23,367 bases of DNA from Emiliania huxleyi CCMP1516 (Eukaryota), in the NCBI RefSeq assembly GCF_000372725.1, contig NW_005201192.1, positions 1,066,758 through 1,090,124 on the forward strand, in the 5' to 3' direction. Positions 375-23,367 of this stretch are shown here, one piece after another. Both the position numbers and the translations under genes were made by a program. Position 1 is the stretch's first letter. Every line of letters starts with the position of its first letter. The notes beneath the pieces are model-generated. The model was not told the DNA's origin and searched no databases. It worked only from the letters and a program-made list of their open reading frames with translations.

Positions 375-470
375 GGGCTAACAAGCTGCCGAGCCCAAAT
401 CACTGTGAGAGGCGTGATTTCTTGTTGGTTTTCTAAAATCTCTCTCTCTGAAGAACAACATCTCTCTCTC

Positions 471-584
<114 letters not shown>

Positions 585-622
585 GAAAATGTTCATGAAG
601 GTGCGCGGCATGGAGAGAGCAT

Positions 623-1817
623 TGCCGCTCACGCCGCCTCTCTCGTACGTCGCGTTGACCCGCCCGCCGCCCTCAAGCCACGCCAGCACCGCCTCCTCCT
701 CGCCTCGCCCAGCCGCTGCCACGACCGCATCGGGGGCTGCCAGGACCACGCTCGGCGCCCGCCCTTCCGCCACCGCTGGAGATTGCGTCTCCGCGACTCT
801 CGATCCGGCCGAGGAAGCGCCGCCGGAGGAAGTGCCGCCTGCGCCTTCGCCGCCGGCTGCCGTCACCGCGGGCCGTCCCGCCACCACCTCCTGGAGGTGC
901 TTCTTGAAGGCCTCGACGCACTCGGCGTGGCCCTTCTCCTTGGCAACCTGCAGCGCTGTCTTGCCGCCCCTTGGCAACCCGTCTCTAGAGCGCCCCTTCC
1001 TATCTGCTCCCGCCCGCAGCAGGCGGAGCACGACGGCGGGGCGGTTGAAGAAGGCGGCGCCGATCAGCGCAGTCCAGCCGTCGCAATTCTGCAGGTTGAC
1101 CTCCGCGCCGTGCTGCATGAGCAGCTCGACCACCCGCTCGTGACCTTTGTTGGCGGCGTACATCAGCGCGGTGTTGCCCTGGCTGTTCTGCAGGTTTATC
1201 TCAGCCCCGTGCAGCAGCAGCAGCTCGATCACCCGCTCGTGGCCGTTGTTGGCGGCGCGCATCAGCGCGGTGACGCCGATGCTGTTCCGCAGGTTGACCT
1301 CCGCGCCGTGCCGAATCAGCTTCTCAACCACCCGCTCTTGGCCGTAAAGGGCGGCGTACATCAGCGCGGCGAGGCCGCTGCTGCTCTGCTGGTTGATCTT
1401 CGCCCCGTGCCGAATAAGCGACTCGACCACCCGCTCGTGGCCGTGGCTGGCGGCGAACATCAGCAGCGTGATGCCGCTCACGCCGCCTCTCTCGCACGTC
1501 GCGTCGGCCCGCCCGCCGCCCTCAAGCCACGCCAGCACCGCCTCCTCCTCGCCACGCTCAGCCGCTGCCACGATCTCATCGGATACCGCCGCGGCACCGC
1601 TCGACGCCCGCTCCGCCGCCGCCGGCGACAGATTGCCCGGCCGCACCCGCACGCTCTCGCCGCTGACCTCGAGCGCCACAGCGTACCGCCCGCCCTCGAA
1701 GCTCCGCGCCACGCCCCGCTGCCCGTTCAGCTCGGGGCGGGAGGAGAGCCCGCCGAGCACGACTCGCTGGCCGAGCAGCGGCGCGTCGGCAGGCGACGTG
1801 CCGGCTTCGTGCTGCAT
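623..1817 (-). pseudogene. Ankyrin-repeat protein with N-terminal SH3/KOW-like module, truncated in its second ankyrin module
   Basis: ATG at 1817 (MQHEAG...); GQRVVLGGLSSRPELNGQRG...GRYAV...VRPGNL module; about 6 ankyrin repeats (G.TALM.AA..GHERVV.LL..HGAE.N). The second module copies the first up to GGVSG, then breaks at ~623 into unrelated TC-repeat sequence. Confidence 0.75.
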
Positions 1818-1875
1818 CGCCACCCACTCGTGCTGTTTCTTTTGAGCAGGCGCAGGCGCGGAGGGGGGCAGAGCC

Positions 1876-1961
1876 TGTAGAGGATGTAGAGTGTAGAGCG
1901 CTGTAGAGCTGTAGAGATGTAGAGCGCTCTGGAGCGCTGTAGAGCTGTAGAGCTCTACATC
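1876..1961. repeat. TGTAGAG-based tandem repeat ending in an inverted CTCTACA
   Basis: About 8 imperfect TGTAGAG units just upstream of the first ankyrin gene. Confidence 0.85.
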
Positions 1962-2778: not shown

Positions 2779-3302
2779 CTATCTACCGGCTTCGAGGGGC
2801 AGGATGCTGATGCCCTCCGGCTTGGACTTTGTGGGGACCGAGAGGGCGAGGGGCGGTCCAACAAGAGTGCCGTCGGGTCGCATGAGCAGCACCTGCTTCG
2901 ACTTGTCCGAGATGACGAGGAGGCGGTCGCCGTCTGTACCCGGACCTGCGCCCGGGACGTGGGAGATGCCCGCGACGTCTCCGACCGACGTCACGGTGGC
3001 GAGGAGCCGCTTGGCGTTCGGCGGCTGGCGGTCCATCCGCAGGGCCAGCGCGGGTTCCTTCTCCTTGAGAAAGTAGAAGGCGTCCTCGCCGGGGGAGTAC
3101 GTCACTCCCTCCACTCCGCCCGCCGTCTGGGTAAGGTCACTTCCGTACCCCGTCTGGTGCACCTGAGGCAAGGTCAGGTACACTTCTCCACACACACGAG
3201 GTGGTGGGGCAAGGGCCAGGCTGTCCCTCGCGTCTGACTCCACGTCTAACGACAGGAGCCCCACGGCATTCAAAGTGCAAGGCCCGGTGCGCGTGGGTGA
3301 GC

Positions 3303-3351
<49 letters not shown>

Positions 3352-7094: not shown

Positions 7095-7203
7095 CTAGTC
7101 GGCATCCGCCTTGGCCCTCGCAGCGGCCGCTGACGCGCGCCTCGCCTTGCCGGCAGCCAGTGCCGCCTCCGCCGCCTCCGCCGCCTCTGCCGCCGCCGCC
7201 GCA

Positions 7204-7235
<32 letters not shown>

Positions 7236-9089
7236 AGCCGCGGCGGCCGCCTCCTCCTCTGCCGCTGCCAGAGCGTCGGCCTCGGCTTCAGCCTCCCGGC
7301 GCGCCTCCGCTGCCACCAAGGCTGCCTCCTCACCCGCCTCTGCCGTCTCCTCCTCGCTCGCCTCGCCTGCCGCCTCGGCCTCCTCTCCCAACGCCTCCGC
7401 CAACCCCGCGACCGACGTCTCCGCCGTGATGCCGTACCGAATCCGCTCCTCGTGGAGCGTCTCGAGAAGCCTGATCAACCCCTCCCTGTCCAGCTTCGCG
7501 GGCTTGGCTGCGTCTGCCTCTGACGGCGCCTCGGACTCCTGCGACGGCCCAGCGCCGCCGCTCCCGCCGCCCTTCTTCTTCTTCTTGCCCTTCTTGCCCT
7601 TGCCGCGCTTCTCCGCCTCGACCTCCGCCAGCAGCTCCTCGGCGTGCCGCGCCGCCTCCGCCTCCGCCGCCGCCCGCTCCGCCGCCCTCTCCGCCGCCCC
7701 CGCAGCCCACGCCGCCTCCTTCGCCGCCTTCTCGGCCGCCGCCTTGGCCGCCGCATGCTCCTCGAGGGCACGCACGCACTCGGCGTGGCCCTCCTGCTTG
7801 GCAATCTGCAGCGCCGTGAGCCCACTCACCGAGCGCAGCTCCGTGTCGGCGCCCGCCCGCAGCAGGCAGAGTACGGCCGCTGGGTGGTTCATGAAAGCGG
7901 CGATCATCAGCGCGGTGCGGCCGACGCTGGTCTGAAGGTTGATCTCCGCGCCGTGCCGCAGCAGCTCGACCACCCGCTCGTGGCCGTTGAGGGCAGCGCC
8001 CATCAGCGCGGTGCTGCCGACGCTGTTCTGAAGGTCGATCGAAGCGCCACGCTGCAGCAACGCCACGGCCAGCCGCTCGTGGCCGTAGAAGGCGGCGGCC
8101 ATCAGCAGCGTAGAGCCGCTCACACCCACAAGAGTGAAAGTCGCGTCCACCCGCCCGCCGCCGTCGAGCCACGCCAGCACCGCCTCGTCGCCCTCCTCAG
8201 CCGCCTCCACGACCTCCTCGGGGACGGCATCCTCGTCCGTTCCGCTCTCCATGCCGCCAGAAGAGGGCGCGGCAGTTGGTGCCGCCGCTGCCCCCTTGCC
8301 CGAGGCGGCATCGCCGTCCGCCCCTGCGCCGCCCGCCTCGCTGATCTCCTCGGGAACAGGCCCGCTGCTGCCGTCCGAAGCGCTGCCTGCCCCCGCGCCG
8401 CCCGCCTCGACCGCCGCCGCGTCGCGCCTCTCCGCCGCCACCTCGCCGAGAAACGTCTTGACGGCGGCGACGCACTCGGTGTGACCCTTCTCCTTGGCGA
8501 TCTGCAGTGCCGTCTTGTCCGCCGTGCGCAGCGTCATGTCTGCGCCCGCCCGCAGCAACTGGAGCAGAACAGCAGGGTGGCCGTAGAAGGCGGCGCCCGT
8601 GAGCGCAGTGCAGCCGCCGACGTCCTGCAGGTCGACCTCTGCGCCGTGCCGCAGAAGCAAGTCGACCACCCGCTCGTAGCCTTGGTTGGCGGCGAGCATC
8701 AGCGCGGTGATACCGCGGCTACTCTGCAGGTTGATCTCCGCGCCGTGCCGCAGCAGCTTCTCGACCACCTGCACGTGGCCTTCGTTGGCGGCGGCCATCA
8801 CCGCCGCAAAGCCTTTGCTGTTTTGCGCGTCCACCTTCGCGCCCCGCTTCAGCAGAACCTCGACCAGCTGCTTGTGACCTTCGGTGGCGGCGATCGCCAG
8901 GAGCGTAAAGCCACTCACACCGCCACGCACGCACGTCACGTCAGCCCGCCCGTCCCCGGCGAGCCACGTCTGCACCACGCCCGCCTTGCCGTCCGCCGCC
9001 GCGGCTTGGATCTTTTTCGGCAGCGCGAGCAGCGCAGCCTGTGGCGCCGTTGAAGCGCGCCCTTTGCCAGCTCCGGTTCGGCCGGGCAT
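7095..9089 (-). CDS. Intronless ankyrin-repeat protein (two ankyrin modules, Lys-rich motif, Ala/Glu-rich coiled tail)
   Basis: 664-aa ORF with about 10 ankyrin repeats; KRGKGKKGKKKKK; close paralog of the gene at 623-1817 (WL.GGGR.DAT..GVSG.TLL module). Confidence 0.88.
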
Positions 9090-9164
9090 GGGAGCGCTCG
9101 CGCCCCGCCCCCCCCAGCAGTTTGTTGGAATAAAGAATTCCTTTGAATAGAGAAAATTAAACTC

Positions 9165-9979: not shown

Positions 9980-12213
9980 ATGTTTCCACGTGGACTTAAC
10001 ATGGCGGGCCGCTCCCGGAGCTTCTCGTCGTTTTTCGAAGGGCTCGGCTTGGATCCGCCAAAGGCCGGCAAGCGCCGCACGGCTGAGCGGATGGACCCCA
10101 AGACGTTCTTTGCAAACGAGCGCACCTTCGCGCAGTGGCAGGCCGCGGGCATGCTCCTCCTCACCGTCGGCATCGCTGTCACCAAGCTCGAGGATTCATT
10201 CGACACCGACCAGCTCGGCGGCATGACCGTCATCGGCTGCTCGCTTGTGATTATGCTGTACGGCCTCGTCTCTTTCCTGCACCGGCTCAAAAAGATTAAG
10301 CGCAAGGACCCGACCGGGTATGACGACCCGCTCGGCCCCGTCGCGCTCATCTTCGTCCTCTTCGCCGCAGTTGCCCTGTACCTCCGCCGCATGTACGGCT
10401 TCAATTGGGACACTGAAGGCATGCTCACGGCCGACACGCCCTTCTTCGAGGCCTTCAAGGTGCCGCTTACCCCCCCCCCCTCCCTCCCTTTCTCGTCTTC
10501 TCTTCACAGCTGCTGCGTCTGTGAGCAGGTCCCCCTTGCCCCATCGCACTTTGCGGACGAGGCGGCCGCCGTCGAGGTGGTGGCGAGGGCGCTGCAGGCT
10601 TCGGCCGCCGTCGCGTCGGTCACACCCCTTTCGCATGAGACAGCTTCCGAGTCCTGCCACTCACGAGTCATGGTTGTAGTGATTGGGGCCGGCATAGGTC
10701 ACTCTCGCAAACGCGACCTTTGAGCTCCTGCGCCGCACGCACCTCGACACGCACCACGCGACTCCTCTCCACTCCTTCCGAGAGATTTTCAACGCCAGCG
10801 GCACGGCGGTCACGCTCACCACGCTGCTGACGGCCGCGGGAGCGCGCCGCAAGAGCCGCAGCTTTGGCTCCGGGAGCGGCAAGGGGACGCTGACAGGCCT
10901 GGCGATGAGCATCCGCGGTGGCGACTTTGCGGAGCTCGCCTCCACCGCCGCAAACTGCGTTGGACGGTCGCGGCGCAACGGCGCGAAATCACATCTGAAA
11001 TGACTCAAGGTGGTACAGTGGACACCAGTTGCGTATCTAGGTACGCGGCGCACTGCGACGTCAGGATCGTGCGGACCTCGCACGCGATGGCGAGGGAGCT
11101 CACGGTCACGCGCGTGCCGCACACGGCGTCGGTCACGTCGGTCCGCGGCGGCCTGAATGTGGGCACTCCATGGAGTGAGTACGTCTCATCAGCGTCATGC
11201 TCGAATGAGTAGGCTGCCGACTTGGGCTTCGTCCGACACGTCAAGCATCATCACGCCCCATTCCAGTCATCTGATCCTGAGTAGGTTGGCGATCAAACTA
11301 TGTATATATACTTTTGTCTCTGGTGATGCCGCCTTTCCCTGAGAACGCACACAACGCCTCGTGTGTAATGCCCTGTGTTCCGCGAGTGCGCGTGCCCCGT
11401 CGTCCATGCTAGGACGTGTGTAACACTGACTGACTGACTGTAGGTTGGCGATCTACGCGGGTACTTTGCCCTGCCGCGCGACGTGGGCGGCAGTATGCGC
11501 GCCGCGCCCTTTCTGACCGCGCGGTGCCGCCCCCTTCAACCAGTGTCATCCACAAACCTCTGGGTTCGATTCTCAGCCCGCCCGACGCCACTGCCCTAGG
11601 TGGTCACCGCTCCTGCCCGCCCGCCCCTCCTGCTCGGACGGCGAGCGGTTGTACGTGGTGGGCGAGCACTACTATTGGAGGGTGCGGCCCACAGTCCATG
11701 TTCACATCACCGCGCATTGCGCGCGGCGCGCCTCGCCTGTTTCAATGCGTCGACCTGGCCTTAGGTGCGGCTCCCGTTCTCTCTCGCGGCGGCGCCGGAG
11801 TCTCGCCTCGTCGCGTCGCTTACCACACGGTATGACACGCCGCAGCTGGCGGTGCGGCCGGACCGGGCGCCGCGCGAGGACTCGGAGCTGTCCTTCCGGC
11901 TCGCCAGCCAGGCTCGCGCGTCATGGATCACGAATAGTAGTCGGTGTGATGAACGCATCGCCCGCCCCTCCTCTTCATCGGACGCCGCCCGCCCTCGTCA
12001 TCGCCGCGCCCCTCCTCAAGCCAGGGCCCCCGGCCTCGAGCTTAGAGCCATAGCGGACCGGCGACCCCCTCCCAACCTTCTCGGAACCTTCTCGGAACCC
12101 TCCCGCAGGCTCCCGACGTCACGCCCGAGGGCGGCGACCTCGCCGGCCCCTCCCTCCTCGCCGCGCGTGCGCTCTACAGCGAGCTGCGCAGCGCGCCTTG
12201 GGCAGCACCGTAA
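9980..12213 (+). CDS. VTC1-like DUF202 three-TM protein with long C-terminal CYTH-like domain (paralog 1, 8 predicted exons)
   Basis: MDPKTFFANERTFAQW...KKIKRKDPTGYDDPLGP is the VTC transmembrane signature. Predicted introns 10460-10528, 10619-10697, 10967-11040, 11141-11443, ~11483-11599, 11682-11764, 11912-12108; TAA 12211-12213. Aligns with the paralog at 16078-18354; frame across 11600-11640 is unresolved. Confidence 0.8.
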
Positions 12214-12566
12214 GGAGTGTGTGAGCGCTCAGCGGACAGGCGCGGTGATTTATTTTCCTCACCTGGCCCTGGCGCGCTGGCCACGACCCTGCCACGTGGT
12301 TCGGTCTACGGCCACGAGCGTGTCTCTAGACTTCCTTGTGGCACGTCCACTTCGCACTTGACACTCTAAGATGCCCTCTGTAACACTATAAGAGATCTCA
12401 AACTGCTGCACACTGCATGGGAAAAATCAACAGTCACAACAGTGGTCCGTGTGCACATTTACGGCTTTATCATTTTGGGGGCAAGAACAACACTTATGCC
12501 CCGTCGCAGCGCACCGCCGACGCGCGACGGCCGGCGGAGGTACAGCAGCACAGCGTAGCGAAGCGC

Positions 12567-13792
12567 TAGCTATGCAAGGGACCGCGGCCGCGGAACCGGC
12601 GGCGGACGGGGCTGGTGCGCAAGCGCCGGCCACCGTCGTGCTGCAGGCCTGCACCGGGGGTGCGCAGCGGACCCTGGAATAGCTACGATCGCGCGCAACT
12701 GGAAGACGCGGTGATGGTCGCAAGGCTCGCAGGTGCGTCGCAGGTCAGGCTGATAAGGCCTGGCTACGCGACCATCGAGGTCGACCTGAAGCACGAGAAG
12801 GCCGCGGGCGACCGCGAGTCTGTGCAGGCGGCGGAGCGCTTGTTCATCGAGCGCACCGCGCCGCGGAAGAAGGAGGAGCTGACGGAGGAGCAGAAGGATG
12901 CTCGGGCCGCGGCTCGCAGGGCCAAAAAGGCCCGGCAGAAGGCGAACAGGGCGAAGAAGAAGGCTGCGGCGGCGGCTGCGAGCGAGGCCGAGCGTGCGGG
13001 CTACCCGTACGCGCAGCTGCGCGAGAACGCCATGTTCGTGATGGAGGGCCTGGAGGCTGCGACGCAGGCGGCGCGCATCCCCACCGGGTCCAACATTCAG
13101 GTCGCCTACGCGCTGCCTCCAGAGGGGGGCAGCGGGTTCGGCGACATGGTGTACGCCACGGTCCCTATGGGCTCCGTGGCGACGAAGGTCGCCCGGGACT
13201 GGCTCGCCAACGAGCTCTACGAGCCGTCCCGGCGAGGCAAAATTGATGCGGCCTGCAGGGACCGAAAGGTTGCCGACCTGATCACGGCTGCCGGCGCCTC
13301 GGCGCCGGCCGACGCCGTGTTCGGCGGCAGGTTCGCGACGGGCGAGACGCCCCGCCCGACGACCTCCGCCTCCGAGGCGGACGAGGGCGACGGCGGCGAT
13401 GGCGGGGCCGAGAACATGTCCTTTGACTTATTCTAGGTCCCCACCCCTGGCCTCACCCATATCTTACCTTCTGCCCCCCCCTCCTGCGACCCCCCAGGCT
13501 AGATGGAGTAGTCAGATGTAGACTTTGCCCCACACAGCCCCTTACCCCTTCACCCTCGCCTCGCTGCTTGGTGTTTCTGAACACGTAGTCGTCCACGCTG
13601 TGGGGGTTTGTGCGGGTCCTGTGTCTGGGAGGGAGGGAGTGGGGTGCAGGTTGCTCACCCACGGCACCGGGCCGGTGCTTGCACTTTGAATGCCGTGGGG
13701 CTCCTGCCCGTGTCCCGGGCGTGGAGATGCGAGGGTCGCCCCCCCTTGCCCCACCACTTTGTGTGTGTGGAGACGTTTACCTTACCTTACCT
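12567..13792 (+). mobile_element. ~1.2-kb non-autonomous non-LTR retroelement with 11-bp TSD and (CCTTA)n tail
   Basis: TAGCGAAGCGC at 12556-12566 and 13793-13803; ends TTTACCTTACCTTACCT; one ORF without RT motifs, then a ~355-nt 3' UTR whose last ~170 nt recur elsewhere in the window. Confidence 0.85.
12572..13436 (+). CDS. Element-encoded basic/coiled protein (ORF1-like), probable frameshift near the G-run at ~12656-12660
   Basis: ATG 5 nt inside the element (MQGTAAAEP...) in one frame; long coding-like frame (...RAAARRAKKARQKANRAKKK...MSFDLF) ends TAG 13434-13436; alternative start ATG at 12714. No RT or endonuclease motifs seen. Confidence 0.55.
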
Positions 13793-14158
13793 TAGCGAAG
13801 CGCGTGTTCGGCGTGTGAGACCCCAGTCGCAGTGCGCGTCGTACCGCTGCCCCGGCAGGTTGGTAGCGCACCAGCTGGAAGGGCTCGGCGGAAGTGTATC
13901 GCGCGCCTTGCGGGGGGGGCGCGGAAAAGAGGAACCTCTTAGCGCCATCGCCAGGGAGGGTGCTGCAAGCAGCGCCGGGCGACGACTCGCGCCCGTGAAT
14001 TTTCCCCGTGCGCGGAAAGCGGGCCGCCCGCGTGGCGTGTCTCTACTGGTTGCACCCAAACAGTAAATTTTGATGCACTTTCATTATCAGGACAGTAAAG
14101 TTTGGCACTTGGCCAGTCACAACTCTCAACAATTCTCGAGCCCAGTCACACCGCTGCT

Positions 14159-16016: not shown

Positions 16017-16068
16017 AGCTGCTCCTGCCCGTGTCCCGGGCGTGGAGATGCGAGGGTCGCCCCCCCTT
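16017..16068 (+). mobile_element. Internal fragment of the retroposon 3' tail between convergent genes
   Basis: GCTCCTGCCCGTGTCCCGGGCGTGGAGATGCGAGGGTCGCCCCCCCTT matches ~13700-13747; preceded by tandem TAGAGCCGTACACG x2. Confidence 0.85.
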
Positions 16069-16077
16069 GGCTGATTC

Positions 16078-18354
16078 TCACGCGTTGTCCGACACCCACG
16101 GCGCGCTGCGCAGCTCTCTGTAGAGGTCGTGCGCCGCGAGGGAGAGGGCGCCGTCCGAGTTGAGGTCGCTCACCTGAGGGGTTAGCAAGCAAGGTGAGGC
16201 GCGAGCTCCTCCACACACGCTTTTGTGGGGGCTCACAGGCTGAGCCGCCCTCGCTCACCTCGACGCCGTGGTTCTGGTTGCCTCCAATCTTGAAGGAGAG
16301 CTCGGAGTCTTCCCGCGGCGTCTGCAGCGGCAGCACCGCCAGCTGCGGCGACTCGTACTTTGTGGTGAGCGACGCGTAGAGGTAGACGGACGGCGCTTGC
16401 GCGAGCGCAAACGGCAGCTTGACCTGACGGGCACACAAGGCAGGGACGGGAAGTCTGGCTCGAAAGTCTGGCGGCGCCACACGCGCCACACGCGGGCGTG
16501 CAAGGCTACCCCCGCGTGCGCTGTGCTGCTGCTTCACCTTCCAGTAGTAAAACTCGTCGCGCACGTAGAGGCGCTCCTCGTCCTCCGTGCCGAGCAGGAA
16601 GGGCCCCGCCGGCACACGAGGCGGTAACGCGAAGTACCCCCTCAGGTCGCCTAGATCAGAAACACACCCGGAGATGCGCGTCTGTTTCTGGGCCCCCCGC
16701 ACACCACACCCGCGAAGGTGGTCGCCGATCGTGGTGAGCGAGGTCGTGTGCGGCATGCCCGAGATCTTGACCGAGCGCTGCCAGCTGGTGGCGGGCAGCG
16801 GCACGCGCGGCGAGCGCGGCTGGCCAACCTCCGCCTTCTCCATGTGGAAGTTCTGCTCCACCTTGACCTCGCAGTGCGCCGCGTACCGTCCGACGCAGTT
16901 GGCGGCGGTGGCGGCGAGCTGCGCGCGCTCGGTGCCCTTGACGGAGAGAGTGAGGTCCGTGCTGCCCGTGCCCGGCGCCGAGCCGAGGTTGGCGCTCATG
17001 TAGCGCGCGCCCTTGAGGGTTAGGCGCGTGGTCAGCTTCACCTTGGAGCGGCCCTGGTTGACGACGAGGTCCTCCGCCGTGTCGAGCTCCGTCTGGCGAA
17101 AGAGCTCGAAGGTGGCGTGGGCGAGTGTGACTGACGAGACCGACGCCGAGGCCTGCATCGCCCTCGCAACCATCGCGATGGCGGCGGTCTCGTTGACGAA
17201 GTACGACGGCATCACCCCCATCTCAAACTCCTTGGAGAAGGGCGTGTCGGCCGTGTGCACCTAAGGTCAGCTCACGGAAACTTCTCCACGCGTGCACAAG
17301 GGGGCGGGGCAAGGGGGGGCAGGCAGTCCTCGCGACTCCACGTCTAAGCGACGGGAGCCGGCCCGGCACTCAAAGTGCGAGGGGCCCGGTGCGCGTGGGT
17401 GAGCGGTGTGAGCGGTGTGAGCGGTCTGTGCGCACCTCCTCGCCCGGCCACTTGAAGGTATACATCCGGAGGAGGTAGGTTCCGACTGCGCCGCAGAGGA
17501 CGATGACGAGTAGAACGGGGCCGACTGGGTCGTCGTAGCCCAGCGGGTCCTTGCGCTTGATCTTCTTGAGGCGGAGGAGGAAGGTGAGGAGGCCGTACAG
17601 CATCAGCAGCAGCGCCGAGCACCTATCCACTTATGGATGATGAGTCACGAATGCACTCTCAGCGGCACAGCAGCAGCAGCGCCGAGCGCATGATCATCAG
17701 GCCGCCGCCGTCCTGCTCCGCGCCCGCCACGTCCTGTTCACAGCTGGAGGTGTGAAGAGACGCTGTTCACGGTGTGGCCGTCCATGTCCTCCATGTCGTC
17801 CTCAAGCTCGGTGATTGCGATGCCGACCGACAGGAGCAACATGCCCGCGCTCAGCCACGACGTGAAGGTGCGCTCGTTCGCGAAGAACGTCTTGGGCTCC
17901 ATGCGGGCGGCGGGGCTCCGTGCGACGCGCTTGCCCGCCGTCGGGTCGCCGTCCACCATCCGGCTCCACGCGGTCTGCGTCCCCCCGGCGGAGGCGGAGC
18001 CGAGGTGGCTGAAGGAGGGGAGCGCGAAGCTCCACGAGCCGTCGAAGCTCCACGAGCGCGTGCGCCGCGGGCCTGACGGCACCGTCACCGTCTCTGACGG
18101 CGCCGACTCTGGCGGCACCGCCTGCTTGGCGGCAACGCCGCCGCCCGCCGTGACGGAGCGCGCGTTGAGCGGCGACGAGCCCGCCTTCGCCGCCGGCGCC
18201 ACCGTCTTCATCCACTCGGCAGCACGTACTCGCTCACCGAAAGATAAGCGTTGCGCTGAGTCGAGGTGGCCACCTAGGCATCGACGATGGGGCTGGGCTG
18301 CGGGCGAGGAGGAGGGTGCTGACGAGGGCGCGGAGCTATAGGCGAGGAGGAGGG
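16078..18354 (-). CDS. VTC-family DUF202 protein with C-terminal CYTH-like domain (paralog 2); 5' part runs into the gap
   Basis: MEPKTFFANERTFTSW...KKIKRKDPLGYDDPVGP. Predicted introns 17734-17788 (or -17770), 17623-17689, 17261-17435, 16651-16725, 16424-16537, 16174-16258; TGA at 16078-16080. Collinear with paralog 1 through ...LY.ELRSAPW. Confidence 0.82.
17261..17435 (-). mobile_element. Intron formed by the retroposon 3'-tail family (subfamily B), GT-AG
   Basis: GAG|GTGCGCACAG...CGCTCACCCACGCGCACCGGGCC..GCACTTTGAGTGCC...CGTGGAGAAG...CTGACCTTAG|GTGCACACGG; splicing gives WPGEE|VHTADTPF, matching intron-free WDTEGMLTADTPF in paralog 1. Confidence 0.88.
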
Positions 18355-19199
18355 NNNNNNNNNNNNNNNNNNNNNNNNNNNNNNNNNNNNNNNNNNNNNN
18401 NNNNNNNNNNNNNNNNNNNNNNNNNNNNNNNNNNNNNNNNNNNNNNNNNNNNNNNNNNNNNNNNNNNNNNNNNNNNNNNNNNNNNNNNNNNNNNNNNNNN
18501 NNNNNNNNNNNNNNNNNNNNNNNNNNNNNNNNNNNNNNNNNNNNNNNNNNNNNNNNNNNNNNNNNNNNNNNNNNNNNNNNNNNNNNNNNNNNNNNNNNNN
18601 NNNNNNNNNNNNNNNNNNNNNNNNNNNNNNNNNNNNNNNNNNNNNNNNNNNNNNNNNNNNNNNNNNNNNNNNNNNNNNNNNNNNNNNNNNNNNNNNNNNN
18701 NNNNNNNNNNNNNNNNNNNNNNNNNNNNNNNNNNNNNNNNNNNNNNNNNNNNNNNNNNNNNNNNNNNNNNNNNNNNNNNNNNNNNNNNNNNNNNNNNNNN
18801 NNNNNNNNNNNNNNNNNNNNNNNNNNNNNNNNNNNNNNNNNNNNNNNNNNNNNNNNNNNNNNNNNNNNNNNNNNNNNNNNNNNNNNNNNNNNNNNNNNNN
18901 NNNNNNNNNNNNNNNNNNNNNNNNNNNNNNNNNNNNNNNNNNNNNNNNNNNNNNNNNNNNNNNNNNNNNNNNNNNNNNNNNNNNNNNNNNNNNNNNNNNN
19001 NNNNNNNNNNNNNNNNNNNNNNNNNNNNNNNNNNNNNNNNNNNNNNNNNNNNNNNNNNNNNNNNNNNNNNNNNNNNNNNNNNNNNNNNNNNNNNNNNNNN
19101 NNNNNNNNNNNNNNNNNNNNNNNNNNNNNNNNNNNNNNNNNNNNNNNNNNNNNNNNNNNNNNNNNNNNNNNNNNNNNNNNNNNNNNNNNNNNNNNNNNN
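18355..19199. other. Assembly gap (845 N)
   Basis: Run of N. Confidence 1.
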
Positions 19200-19621
19200 G
19201 TGTGCGGCACGCGCGTGACCGTGAGCTCCCTCGCCATCGCGTGCGAGGTCCGCACGATCCTGACGTCGCAGTGCGCCGCGTACCTAGATACGCAACTGGT
19301 GTCCACTGTACCACCTTGAGTCATTTCAGATGTGATTTCGCGCCGTTGCGCGGGGACCGTGCAACGCAATGTCCGCCGGTGAAGGGGGGATCGGCAGAGC
19401 GGGGTGCAGCGGGGGAGTGGGGCGCGGCAAGGGCAGCCTCTGTGTCGGGCTCGGAGTCGAGCCCGCCGCAGACGGAGGACTGGCGCGAGACTTGGCGCGA
19501 GCACCTGCTCACAGCTGCAGGCGTGAAGATACGCCGTTCACACTCACAGCTCGGCGGACCCGTCGGCGCGAGCACAGCGCTGCGAAGGCTTCGGCTTGAG
19601 GCCGGGCTGGAGCAACGCACT

Positions 19622-19695
19622 CAGATCTCGGCCAGATCTCGGCCAGATCTCGGCCAGATCTCGGCCAGATCTCGGCTGGATCTCGGCTGGATCTC
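19622..19695. repeat. 11-nt CCAGATCTCGG tandem repeat (probably intronic)
   Basis: About 6-7 units. Confidence 0.9.
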
Positions 19696-19698
19696 GTC

Positions 19699-20463
19699 CT
19701 GTCCGCGGGCGCGGCTGCCGAGGCGACTGTCCGCTCCGTGCGGAAGGTACCGTCGCTGCGGCCACTGACGTCCTTGAGGAGGTTGGGCAGCTGCCTAAGG
19801 TGAGGCAAGGGAAACGTCTCCACACACACAAGGGGGGGCGACCCTCGCATCTCCACGCCCGGGACGCGGGCAGGAGCTGGCACGGCATTCAAAGTGCAAG
19901 CACCGGCCCGGTGCCGTGGGTGAGCAACCTGCAACCCACTCCCTCCCTCCCAGACTGCGGGTTGTGCGGCAGCTGCCTGCGCTGAGCCTCATCGAGCTCT
20001 GCCGCCGGCGCCCAGTCGCGGACTGCGGCGAGGGAGTAGCTCGCGCCCTCGAGAGGCTGGCTGGCCAGCGCCTCCTTGACGGCGGGCTCCTGTTCACAGG
20101 CTGCACCCGTGAAGGGACGCCGTTCACAGGCTGGCTGGCCAGCGCCTCCTCGACGGCGGGCTCCTGTTCACAGGCTGCACCCGTGAAGGGACGCCGTTCA
20201 CAGGCTGGCTGGCCAGCGCCTCCTCGACGGCGGGCACCTCGAACCAGTACGGCAGCGTCTCCACCGCGCCGGTGTGCAGCGCCGCGCACCCCGTCAGGTA
20301 CTTCGAGAACTTGGCCATCGGGAGGAGCAGCTCCGACGCGAGCAGCTCCTGTTCAGGACGCCCTCTTCACTGAGTGGGCGCTTGCTCCCTCCTCGGGGAC
20401 GTCACGCTGCCCTCTCGCGAGCGGCTCCTCCACCCACGCTGGAGCCTCGGCCTGCAGCTTGAC
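19699..20463 (-). CDS. C-terminal part of a VTC polyphosphate-polymerase (TTM) domain, Vtc2/3/4-like; probably upstream exons of the gene at 16078-18354
   Basis: Spliced exons 20463-20428, 20348-20238, 20089-19977, 19794-19699 give VKLQAEAPAWVE|ELLASELLLPMAKFSKYLTGCAALHTGAVETLPYWFE..., matching the VTC EVKLQ...P.WV.EL......KFSKF..G....LPFW motif. Confidence 0.75.
19795..19976 (-). mobile_element. Intron formed by the retroposon 3' tail (subfamily A), GC-AG, perfect 11-bp TSD
   Basis: 19797-19955 is near-identical (reverse complement) to 13623-13792 apart from one short deletion and a few substitutions; GGCAGCTGCCT at 19786-19796 and 19968-19978. Confidence 0.92.
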
Positions 20464-20922
<459 letters not shown>

Positions 20923-22593
20923 CGTTGCGGCTAACTTCGAAATGTGCACCTGGGATGGCTGCGCTCCCTTTGTGCTGGCTGGCTGGTACACCCTGCGGCG
21001 GCGCGGCCGGTTGAGAGGTTTTCTTTTTGTGAGAGAAAAGCCTTGGGGTGGGAACCTCTGAGAAGGTGCAGGCGTGCGAGGGCGCTATCTGCGTCGTGCG
21101 GGGCTGCTGGCTGGGCGCTCTTGTGTTGTAAGGCTGCTGTTTTCTCAGGGCGCGGGGGGTCGCGCAGTGCGTGAGCCGCGCGGGCGTGTGTGAGTGTATT
21201 AGCTTTCCAGTTGATCCTTATCGGACTGGTGAGTTCCCTCTCGCTGTCAGTGTGACGTCCAGGCAGTCATTGGCAGCGGTGCTACACACCCTACGCCTTC
21301 ATTCGTTTTCTCCAAGTAGGAAAGAAATTTTGTGTCTCGTCATCATGTTTTTCTTTTTTTGCTTATGGCAGTAAAAAGAAACGGAACTGTGTGCGACAGG
21401 CGCGGGCTCGGTCGATATCCAATACTTCGACTCACATGTTCACTGCTGCGGTGTGTGCCCGGGAAGGCGCAGCGGCGGGATGGATTGAGAAGGTCTCAGA
21501 GAGACTGCAGGCGTGCAGAGGCGCGCGTTGCAGTGTCTCTGATTGGGCTGCTGGCGGTGTGAGCGCGAGACGGCGTGGTGAGGCGAGGGGCAGGCTGTTG
21601 TTGCGGGGTGCGGGCAGCATCGTCGAGCGCAGTGCGTGTGGTGCTGTATGCTGTGTGTGCAGGCAGGCTGGCAGTCTGTGCTGTAGACCGGAACGGATGA
21701 GCGCGCGCGCGCGCGCGCGCGCGCGTGCGGGCGTGCGTGCGCGGCTTGCGCGGTGCAGGACCTGCGTCGTACTCGCGGCGCGTCCTGGTACTGCCGCTTG
21801 TGAGATGCCAGAAGCAGTGTGCAGAGCCTGCACAGGGCGCAAAAAGGCGAGGTAGTGCTGGTGAGGTGTGCTGCGGTGCGCGCGTCGCGGCGTGAGTGGA
21901 CGAGCGGCTGGCTCTGGTAGTGCGAGGGGCGCGCAGCTGGTGCGGGCGGCGCGGGACGGCCATGGGGCGCCAGCACAGGGCAGACGCACATGGCACAGCT
22001 CTGAAATGGCGCTGCGCGTGTTTGCGTGCGCGCGGGGACGTACGCGCAGTTTTCACGCGGTGTGCGTGGAGAAGGGCATGAGGCTTGAGGGGCGCCGGCC
22101 GCGCGCGGCTCGGCGTGTGCGAGTGCGTGGTTCGTGTGGTTCGGTGCCCGAAGGCGACTGACCAGTCTTGCTGCCATCGCGGAACGAAGGCTTTAGAAGA
22201 AAGGTGACCCCCCCCCCACGAGGCAATGTTCGTCCCTGGCTCGCTTCCCCCCCAACCCCCAGTTCTATCCCCCAGTTCCAGCCCCCTCCAATCCCCAGTG
22301 TCGCCACGTACCTGCGCAGAAACCCGTATGCGCTGTGATCGGTTCCCGATCCATCCCGCTCGCCGTGCCGCATGAGAGCTACATGGAGAAGCCGGACGTC
22401 TTGGCGTGCCGCCGATCGCTGTCGGTGAAGCTGTTCGGCGCCTATAAACGGTGAAGCCTCCAGCGTGAGGGGCTGCAGAGGGGAGCAGAGGGGCGCAGAG
22501 GGGAGCAGAGGGGAGTGGCCGGGGGAGGCTCCCAATGCAATCTCGACTCGGGCAATCTCGGGTAATCTCGGGGAGTCCAAAGTCATCTCGCAC

Positions 22594-22953
22594 CTTCCAC
22601 TCGGCCGCATCGGACGGCGGCGCCGCCTGGGCTTGCTTCTTCCCGCCGCCCCCGCAGAGGACGCGGCGCAGCACCTAGAAACAGAAGTCTCCGCCGCGTC
22701 GACTCCGTGTTCTCGGCGCCGCGCAGAGGACGGCCGAGCACCGCCAAGAGCGCGAGGCCCAAAGCCACACCGCCGAGGATCTCGACCAGGCTCAGCGAGA
22801 GGGAGGTCTCCTCCGGGACAGGGGGCTGGAGCAGCGGCGGCGGTGGCGGCGGCGGCGTCGGAGAGGATAGCCACCACATCTGCACCTAGAAAAGACGAGC
22901 AAACGCGCGTGATGTCGTCTTTCGGGTCGGGTCGCGGCCCTCCGTTTGCCCAC

Positions 22954-22984
<31 letters not shown>

Positions 22985-23316
22985 GGCGGCGGCGGCGGCG
23001 CGGGTGGCGGCGGCGGCGTCTTGGTCGGCGGCGGCGTCGGCGGCGGCGGTGCCGGAAGCGCGCATCGCGACCCATTGGTCAGGAGGAGCTCGTAGAGGGA
23101 CAGGCTGCCGGAGTGCGCGCCGGCAAACATGACCGCGGCGGCGCCCGACGGCGACTGGTGCTTGTCGAGGATTGCCACAGACTCGACGCCTACTTGCGCG
23201 TGAGTGACGCCGTGCATGAGGGCTGTGGGCGGGGGAGGGCGAGAGGCTGCTGGTGCGGCTCGGGCTCCGATGTCTCCGAGCGTCTGCTCCTTGAAGGCGA
23301 CGCCCGGGCTCTTGTC
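22594..23316 (-). CDS. 3' exons of a choice-of-anchor-I-like (alkaline phosphatase-associated propeller) membrane protein; gene extends beyond the right edge
   Basis: Spliced TLGDIG|VESVAILDKHQSPSGAAAVMFAGAHSGSLSLYEL resembles the GDLGPEG..F....SP.G..LL...EVSG....YE family C-terminus; followed by poly-Pro stalk and TM helix LVEILGGVALGLALLAVL. Final exon not resolved. Confidence 0.55.
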
Positions 23317-23367
23317 CTAGTGCGTGAGTACACAACGCCAGGGCGTGAATAGAGCTCGCACTAGAGG

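What the first reader, a model, noticed from the sequence alone, without database searches (positions are those of the whole stretch)
19786..19978. Young intron whose splice sites lie inside a perfect 11-bp target-site duplication
On the minus strand AG|GCAGCTGCC occurs at both ends of a 182-nt GC-AG intron whose body is nearly identical to the element tail at 13623-13792. The TSD length equals that of the intergenic full copy. Splicing restores EAQR|RQLPNLLK with no residue gained or lost. This is the cleanest single example of the proposed mechanism.
Basis: seen in the sequence. Interest (0 to 1): 0.85.

Follow-up and report, generated by a model that had tools for sequence, protein, structure and literature searches.

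The report
Retroposon insertion that became an intron
In a marine alga (Emiliania huxleyi), a 182-base intron has both splice sites inside an 11-base direct repeat and is skipped in likely-RNA assemblies, and it was likely created when a truncated copy of a mobile retro-element inserted into an exon, an apparently under-counted route to new introns.

Summary
Minus-strand 19976-19795 is a 182-nt GC-AG intron with a perfect 11-nt repeat at both ends. All 6 likely-RNA runs laid (6 studies) skip exactly 182 nt. The host is an E. huxleyi VTC/DUF202 gene.

The intron body is the 3' end of a dispersed family (120 metagenome loci). The family ends in a variable (CCTTA)n tail and starts at variable 5' points. 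12 of 32 testable copies have 7-11-nt flanking repeats at the 5' edge, against 0.55 expected. The focal copy also carries an 11-nt 5' inversion. These are marks of LINE-type retrotransposition, but no reverse transcriptase was found.

- Repeat length varies across the family.
- The 'full' copy appears 5'-truncated.
- The intron is about 4% diverged and shared by other alleles.
- No empty allele was found.
- Only 12 of 81 sites have intron geometry.

Splice sites taken from target duplications, and non-LTR introners, are published. This family appears absent from the catalogue I checked.

The parts
19795..19976 (-). 182-nt GC-AG intron, phase 2
   Evidence: skipped in 6 of 6 runs laid
19968..19978 (-). 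upstream copy of the 11-nt direct repeat (inferred target-site duplication); holds the exon-end AG and the GC donor
19786..19796 (-). downstream copy of the repeat; its AG is the acceptor (the A also fits the tail unit)
19956..19966 (-). 11-nt segment that is the reverse complement of the element sequence lying directly 5' of the retained body in L097 and L109 (5' inversion)
   Evidence: the motif lies within 120 nt of the core in 4 loci; chance about 6e-5 per position
19797..19955 (-). element 3' body plus decayed (CCTTA)n tail, which supplies the pyrimidine-rich stretch before the acceptor
19977..20089 (-). upstream exon of the VTC/DUF202 gene
19699..19794 (-). downstream exon (3' end as in run X1; X2 and X4 differ slightly)
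16081..20481 (-). 3' part of the host gene (end of VTC domain, linker, DUF202, C-terminal region); the first 457 residues of P0127 are not in the window
12567..13792 (+). long intergenic copy of the family (about 1.23 kb) with a multicopy ORF of no known family; appears 5'-truncated and frameshifted
12556..12566 (+). 5' copy of the long element's 11-nt flanking repeat
13793..13803 (+). 3' copy of the long element's 11-nt flanking repeat
17261..17435 (-). second family-derived intron in the same gene (175 nt, GT-AG, 10-nt repeat with 1 mismatch)
   Evidence: absent from protein P0127; no reads laid on it
3163..3351 (-). third family-derived intron candidate (189 nt, GC-AG, 8-nt repeat with 2 mismatches) in another gene
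   Evidence: splicing not tested
20464..20620 (-). family copy ending at an acceptor of the host gene; its 5' end runs into a long (CA)n tract

Best explanation
The spliced 182-nt intron is likely a 5'-truncated, 5'-inverted copy of a non-autonomous retroposon that inserted into a coding exon and duplicated about 10-11 bases of it. Shown: the intron consists only of 9 nt of the repeat, one G, an 11-nt inversion, the element's 3' end and the AG; it is removed in the assemblies laid; the family has a variable (CCTTA)n tail, variable 5' ends and variable flanking repeats. Inferred: a LINE-type endonuclease/reverse transcriptase supplied in trans nicked the exon at an AG-G-C site and primed reverse transcription on the tail, with 1-2 nt of tail/target overlap. 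The second strand primed internally, giving the inversion. The pyrimidine-rich tail now sits before the second AG and makes it an acceptor, and the first copy offers AG|GC as donor. Because E. huxleyi accepts GC donors freely, splicing leaves one copy of the repeat and the original frame. Such insertions would survive selection, while most exonic insertions would not.
For: Skip of 182 nt in 6 of 6 runs. Run X10 holds both the joined form (depth 7.2) and an 85-nt unspliced piece across the donor (depth 4.0). Tail ends in every phase, with perfect runs of up to 25 nt. 12 of 32 copies have a repeat of 7 nt or more at the independently mapped 5' edge against 0.55 expected from swapped flanks (10 of 29 without window copies), and those edges lie 14 to 1090 nt above the core. 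11 of 11 inverted match next to the junction. Where tail meets AG, GY follows in 10 of 18 non-window sites against a background of 0.166, p 2e-4. RTE-clade repeats are 7-15 bp, mostly 10-12, with microsatellite tails overlapping the target (PMC6007223, passages). 5' inversion by twin priming is described in PMC2912911 (passages).
Against: No empty allele or intron-less ortholog was found; every genomic allele seen carries the intron. No reverse transcriptase: 0 of 103 element-strand ORFs upstream of cores hit an RT family, no RT-like motif in 120 loci, and 4 longer relatives of the ORF show no RT domain. 14 of 32 copies have no repeat of 5 nt or more. The unspliced X10 piece has only 21 nt on the exon side, under the tool's 31-nt bar. 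No clear microhomology at the inversion junction (read), and 5' inversion is reported as rare for elements mobilised in trans by L1 (PMC2912911, passages). Only 2 of 13 loci tested give a domain hit right after the acceptor: kinesin above cut-off and PPR weak. In L015 and L110 the sequence before the first repeat looks intronic, so some copies sit at older acceptors and made no new intron. Tail decay is not significantly greater at AG|GY sites (p 0.07).
Confidence: 0.8

Rival explanations
1. A staggered double-strand break in the exon was repaired by capturing element cDNA or RNA without the element's own endonuclease, or an exon tandem duplication came first and the element landed between the copies.
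For: Neighbouring introns of the same gene also begin with a near-copy of the next exon (14 nt with 1 mismatch at 20427, about 38 nt with 2 mismatches at 20237), so duplication-flanked introns arise here with other repeats too. No RT or endonuclease was found.
Against: Repeats of 8-11 nt recur at intergenic copies as well, as expected of programmed staggered nicks. The tail abuts the repeat exactly, and the inversion fits target priming.
Confidence: 0.1
2. An older intron already existed here and the element inserted into it or at its acceptor.
For: Some family copies do appear to sit at pre-existing acceptors (L015, L110). No empty allele was seen.
Against: In the focal intron every base is accounted for by repeat, one G, inversion and element, and the donor itself lies inside the duplicated exon sequence.
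Confidence: 0.05
3. It is a DNA-transposon (MITE-type) introner with a fixed 11-bp duplication, or an intron spread by reverse splicing.
For: Most classified introners are TIR DNA transposons (about 82%, PMC12130899 section 6). Two window copies both show 11 nt.
Against: 5' ends, tail lengths and repeat lengths all vary. 69 of 81 sites lack AG|GY. The two ends of the intron are not inverted repeats of each other (self-hits), and its fold is no better than shuffles (z 0.13).
Confidence: 0.05

Closest known systems
[quoted passage not shown] 2E co-opts both from the insertion site)
   Same: Donor and acceptor dinucleotides come from duplicated exon sequence; the mRNA length is unchanged.
   Different: Polarella class 14 has a fixed 4-nt duplication. 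Here the duplication is 7-11 nt, the 5' end varies, there is a microsatellite tail, and most copies are not introns.
Non-LTR-classed introner families of Gozashti et al. 2025 (PMC12130899; 14 rows in supplement file 8, among them Pavlovales fam1, a haptophyte)
   Same: Retro-element origin of new introns; several co-opt the 5' site.
   Different: None of those rows is E. huxleyi. Its three listed families are classed Unknown or LTR, and their alignment coordinates suggest introns of about 70 nt or less. I compared lengths only, not sequences.
RTE-clade LINEs and their SINEs (PMC6007223), e.g. Sauria SINE with an (ACCTTT)n tail
   Same: Short tandem-repeat tail, duplications centred on 10-12 bp, 1-2 nt overlap of tail and target.
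   Different: No partner LINE was found. The long form carries an unknown ORF of about 290 aa, and no Rfam family reached threshold on the long copy.
5'-inverted L1 insertions (twin priming, PMC2912911)
   Same: Order is duplication, inverted adjacent segment, forward 3' part, tail, duplication.
   Different: The inversion is only 11 nt, has no clear junction microhomology, and lies in a non-autonomous algal element.

Membership tests
Spliceosomal GC-AG intron | Removed from transcripts at GC..AG | tested here: met
   182-nt skip in 6 of 6 runs, one canonical register; RNA status of the runs is a guess
Introner (TE that creates introns on insertion) | Element homology reaches both intron ends | tested here: met
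   The intron is fully explained by repeat, one G, inversion and element
Introner (TE that creates introns on insertion) | Four or more similar introns in unrelated genes | tested here: inconclusive
   Focal and 17261-17435 are in one gene. 3163-3351, L060 and L001 are candidates by geometry; their splicing was not tested
Introner (TE that creates introns on insertion) | Empty site in an allele or ortholog | tested here: inconclusive
   L033 and the allele behind P0125 both carry it; no DNA of relatives could be reached
Non-LTR retroposon (LINE-mobilised) | Variable-length target duplications | tested here: met
   7, 8, 10 and 11 nt in 12 of 32 copies, 0.55 expected
Non-LTR retroposon (LINE-mobilised) | Fixed 3' end with simple-repeat tail and variable 5' truncation | tested here: met
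Non-LTR retroposon (LINE-mobilised) | Partner LINE with RT sharing the 3' end | tested here: inconclusive
   None in 120 short loci; tail scans of genome and viral contigs were empty
SINE (Pol III RNA-derived head) | tRNA, 5S or 7SL-derived 5' head | tested here: inconclusive
   Rfam on 12300-14000 gave one chance-level hit, but that copy appears truncated; heads of other subfamilies were not scanned
TIR DNA transposon / MITE introner | Fixed ends, terminal inverted repeats, fixed duplication length | tested here: not met

The most novel reading that the evidence does not exclude
E. huxleyi hosts an undescribed retroposon family, with an ORF-only long form, whose microsatellite tail works as a portable 3' splice signal. 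Its truncated copies have created many introns across the genome that introner screens miss, because 5' ends differ and GC or GA donors are mis-annotated. A second repeat family in the same gene may do the same, so retro-insertion with target duplication could be a main source of this alga's non-canonical introns.
Probability: 0.4. Interest if true: 0.8.

Novelty: new variant of a known kind. Interest (0 to 1): 0.55.

Why it matters
Intron gain has mostly been traced to DNA transposons with fixed ends. This case records a LINE-type insertion signature (tail, variable duplication, truncation, 5' inversion) inside one spliced intron. The published screen starts from annotated introns and requires similarity up to both boundaries (PMC12130899 sections 12 and 13). 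The public model P0125 places this donor elsewhere and adds 14 residues. I infer that such families are under-counted. E. huxleyi has many sequenced strains, so presence/absence of these introns can be tested directly.

Tried and rejected
No whole genome is held for the window, so no genome-wide census was possible. No RNA holder is listed on record; the runs are guessed RNA. Family patterns gave 0 hits in viral contigs and prokaryote genomes. The element ORF has no Pfam family, no usable Atlas hit, only chance-level PDB sequence hits and a poor model (pLDDT 43.6), so no fold search was run. The deep representative search never ran because the queue was full. An unanchored repeat search (10 of 49 copies with 10-11 nt against 0.38 expected) included two duplicate pairs and one false 1504-nt pairing at the 3.2-kb copy, so I rely on the edge-anchored test. 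The fold of the intron is not special. Earlier-finding look-ups returned nothing. The idea that intronic tails decay faster was not significant. Literature searches listed no paper whose title or abstract start describes this family. I did not see Repbase, the 2022 paper's supplements, files 13-14 of the 2025 supplement, bioRxiv supplements or subscription papers, any of which may hold it.

Full report
Observation. On the minus strand the 11-mer lies at 19978-19968 and 19796-19786. Cutting after its first AG in both copies removes 19976-19795, 182 nt, GC to AG; this is the only canonical register. From base 22 on, the intron matches 13623-13795 (87.9% over 174 columns, one 13-nt gap) and more weakly four other places in the window. 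In shuffled DNA such an AG-starting 11-mer pair occurs in 2 of 23,840 cases, but in the real window in 93 of 2,828, which I attribute to its tandem repeats. The case therefore rests on where the repeat sits, not on the repeat alone.

Organism and gene. Nearly all named relatives of window proteins are Emiliania huxleyi CCMP1516 models; one is filed under a bacterial MAG. The host gene matches P0127, a 1148-aa protein with VTC and DUF202 domains. Residues 458-1148 map to 20481-16081, and the N-terminal part is not in the window. GC donors are the majority in this alga (56-65%, PMC4028052, passages seen).

Splicing. Ten runs hold about a third of the words of 19200-20500, none on record as RNA. 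I laid 6 of the 10. All 6, from 6 studies, show a contig skipping 182 nt with 11 ambiguous letters. In one search the same contigs also skip 148 nt and 79 nt in 4 of 4 runs, as spliced mRNA would. An allele lacking the insertion would give the same join, so I looked for unspliced pieces. X10 has one of 85 nt across the donor beside the joined form, though with only 21 nt on the exon side. P0127 reads EAQRRQLPNLLK; the public model P0125 instead adds 14 residues from the intron start. Retention leads to a stop.

The family. Of 123 copies including three from the window, 87 had a callable tail and flank, forming 81 distinct sites; 36 were dropped because the contig ended or the tail was not called. 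Tails are (CCTTA)n ending in any phase. For 44 non-duplicate copies with enough upstream DNA I mapped the 5' edge by similarity to other copies; 12 ran off the contig. Of the other 32, 12 have a repeat of 7-11 nt at that edge (0.55 expected from swapped flanks), 6 have 5-6 nt (6.8 expected) and 14 have none. Edges with repeats lie 14 to 1090 nt above the core. Several different 5' heads share the tail. The longest form carries a multicopy ORF of about 290 aa (150 relatives) with no Pfam, Atlas or PDB match. The window's long copy begins about four codons into it and is frameshifted, so it is not full length. No RT was found.

Anatomy of the focal copy. After the upstream repeat and one G come 11 nt that are the reverse complement of the sequence directly preceding the retained body in L097 and L109; the motif lies near the core in 4 loci. 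The chance is about 6e-5 per position. The order duplication, inverted piece, forward 3' end, tail, duplication is that of twin priming (PMC2912911, passages), though that paper reports inversions as rare in trans and I see no junction microhomology. Duplication size and tail/target overlap fit RTE-type elements (PMC6007223, passages). Assigning a clade is inference.

How an intron results. The tail supplies pyrimidines up to an AG whose G is target-derived, and the upstream duplicate supplies AG|GC. Only 21 of 81 sites have AG at the tail end and 12 have AG|GY. Leaving out three window-linked sites, 10 of 18 AG sites continue with GY against 0.166 in flanking DNA (p 2e-4). One of the ten (L068) looks like a tandem element. 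This fits retention of spliceable insertions or a target preference, which I cannot separate. Domain support right after the acceptor was found in 2 of 13 loci. L015 and L110 appear to duplicate an older acceptor. In the window, 17261-17435 (absent from P0127) and 3163-3351 have the same geometry with decayed repeats.

Age. L033, from a metagenome, is the same locus with the same intron and repeat, 15 nt longer in the body. Both alleles share about 7 changes against the subfamily majority, whereas 13 of 17 comparison copies have 0-1 body substitutions (the sample is biased to young copies by the exact-match scan). The intron postdates or accompanies the family's spread but is older than most sampled copies. 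No empty site was seen.

What is known. Recruiting both splice sites from a duplication is described for Polarella class 14 (bioRxiv 2020.10.14.339549, passages) and co-option of both sites for Florenciella (PMC9860276, passages). Gozashti 2025 (sections 6 and 12 read, other passages, supplement file 8 rows) classes about 5% of classified families as non-LTR. It lists three E. huxleyi families, short and classed Unknown or LTR. The Mobile DNA review PMC11282704 (passages) treats mass gains as DNA-transposon-derived. The G. huxleyi genome preprint 2024.05.26.595999 (passages) showed nothing on this family. My searches listed no description of it; Repbase and several supplements were not seen.

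Verdict. This is a real spliced intron, likely made by LINE-type retroposition with both splice sites taken from the duplication (0.8). It is a new variant of a known kind, interest 0.55. An empty allele, a genome-wide count and the partner RT remain open.

Noticed in passing
window 20349-20427 and 19505-19698 (minus): Two introns with apparent GA donors in the same gene. The 79-nt skip is in 4 of 4 runs and the 194-nt skip in X1 and nearly so in X3. The first starts with a 14-nt near-copy of the next exon.
   Followed up: partly
window 20090-20237 (minus): 148-nt intron made of two 74-nt units, each starting with a near-copy of about 38 nt of the next exon. L033 has one unit only. It ends in a short repeat also seen at 19505-19545 and near 17735-17770, possibly a second intron-forming family.
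   Followed up: partly
window 20620-23367: The N-terminal 457 residues of the VTC protein are absent from the window, and RNA contigs leave it at 20465 for sequence not in it. This suggests a mis-join at the (CA)n tract or a rearranged gene copy.
   Followed up: partly
window 19200-19399 and 10925-11124: 200-nt inverted near-duplicate (94%) next to the N gap at 18355-19199; the gene at about 10060-12200 is a DUF202 paralog of the host gene's 3' half.
   Followed up: no
L015 and L045, L110: Family copies that appear to have duplicated an existing acceptor, leaving an AG|GY site inside a longer intron; a possible recursive-splicing point.
   Followed up: partly
L001 near the core match: Family copy with an 8-nt repeat and a GA-AG geometry inside a stretch that resembles a HEN1 methyltransferase motif (resemblance recalled, no Pfam hit).
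   Followed up: partly
window 378-1900 and 7095-9090 (minus): Two related ORFs with 99-nt repeats that read like ankyrin repeats (label recalled, not scanned).
   Followed up: no
window 16021-16069 (+): 49-nt internal fragment of the element just past the host gene's end; RNA contigs of X3 and X10 run from the last exon into it (loose ends).
   Followed up: no
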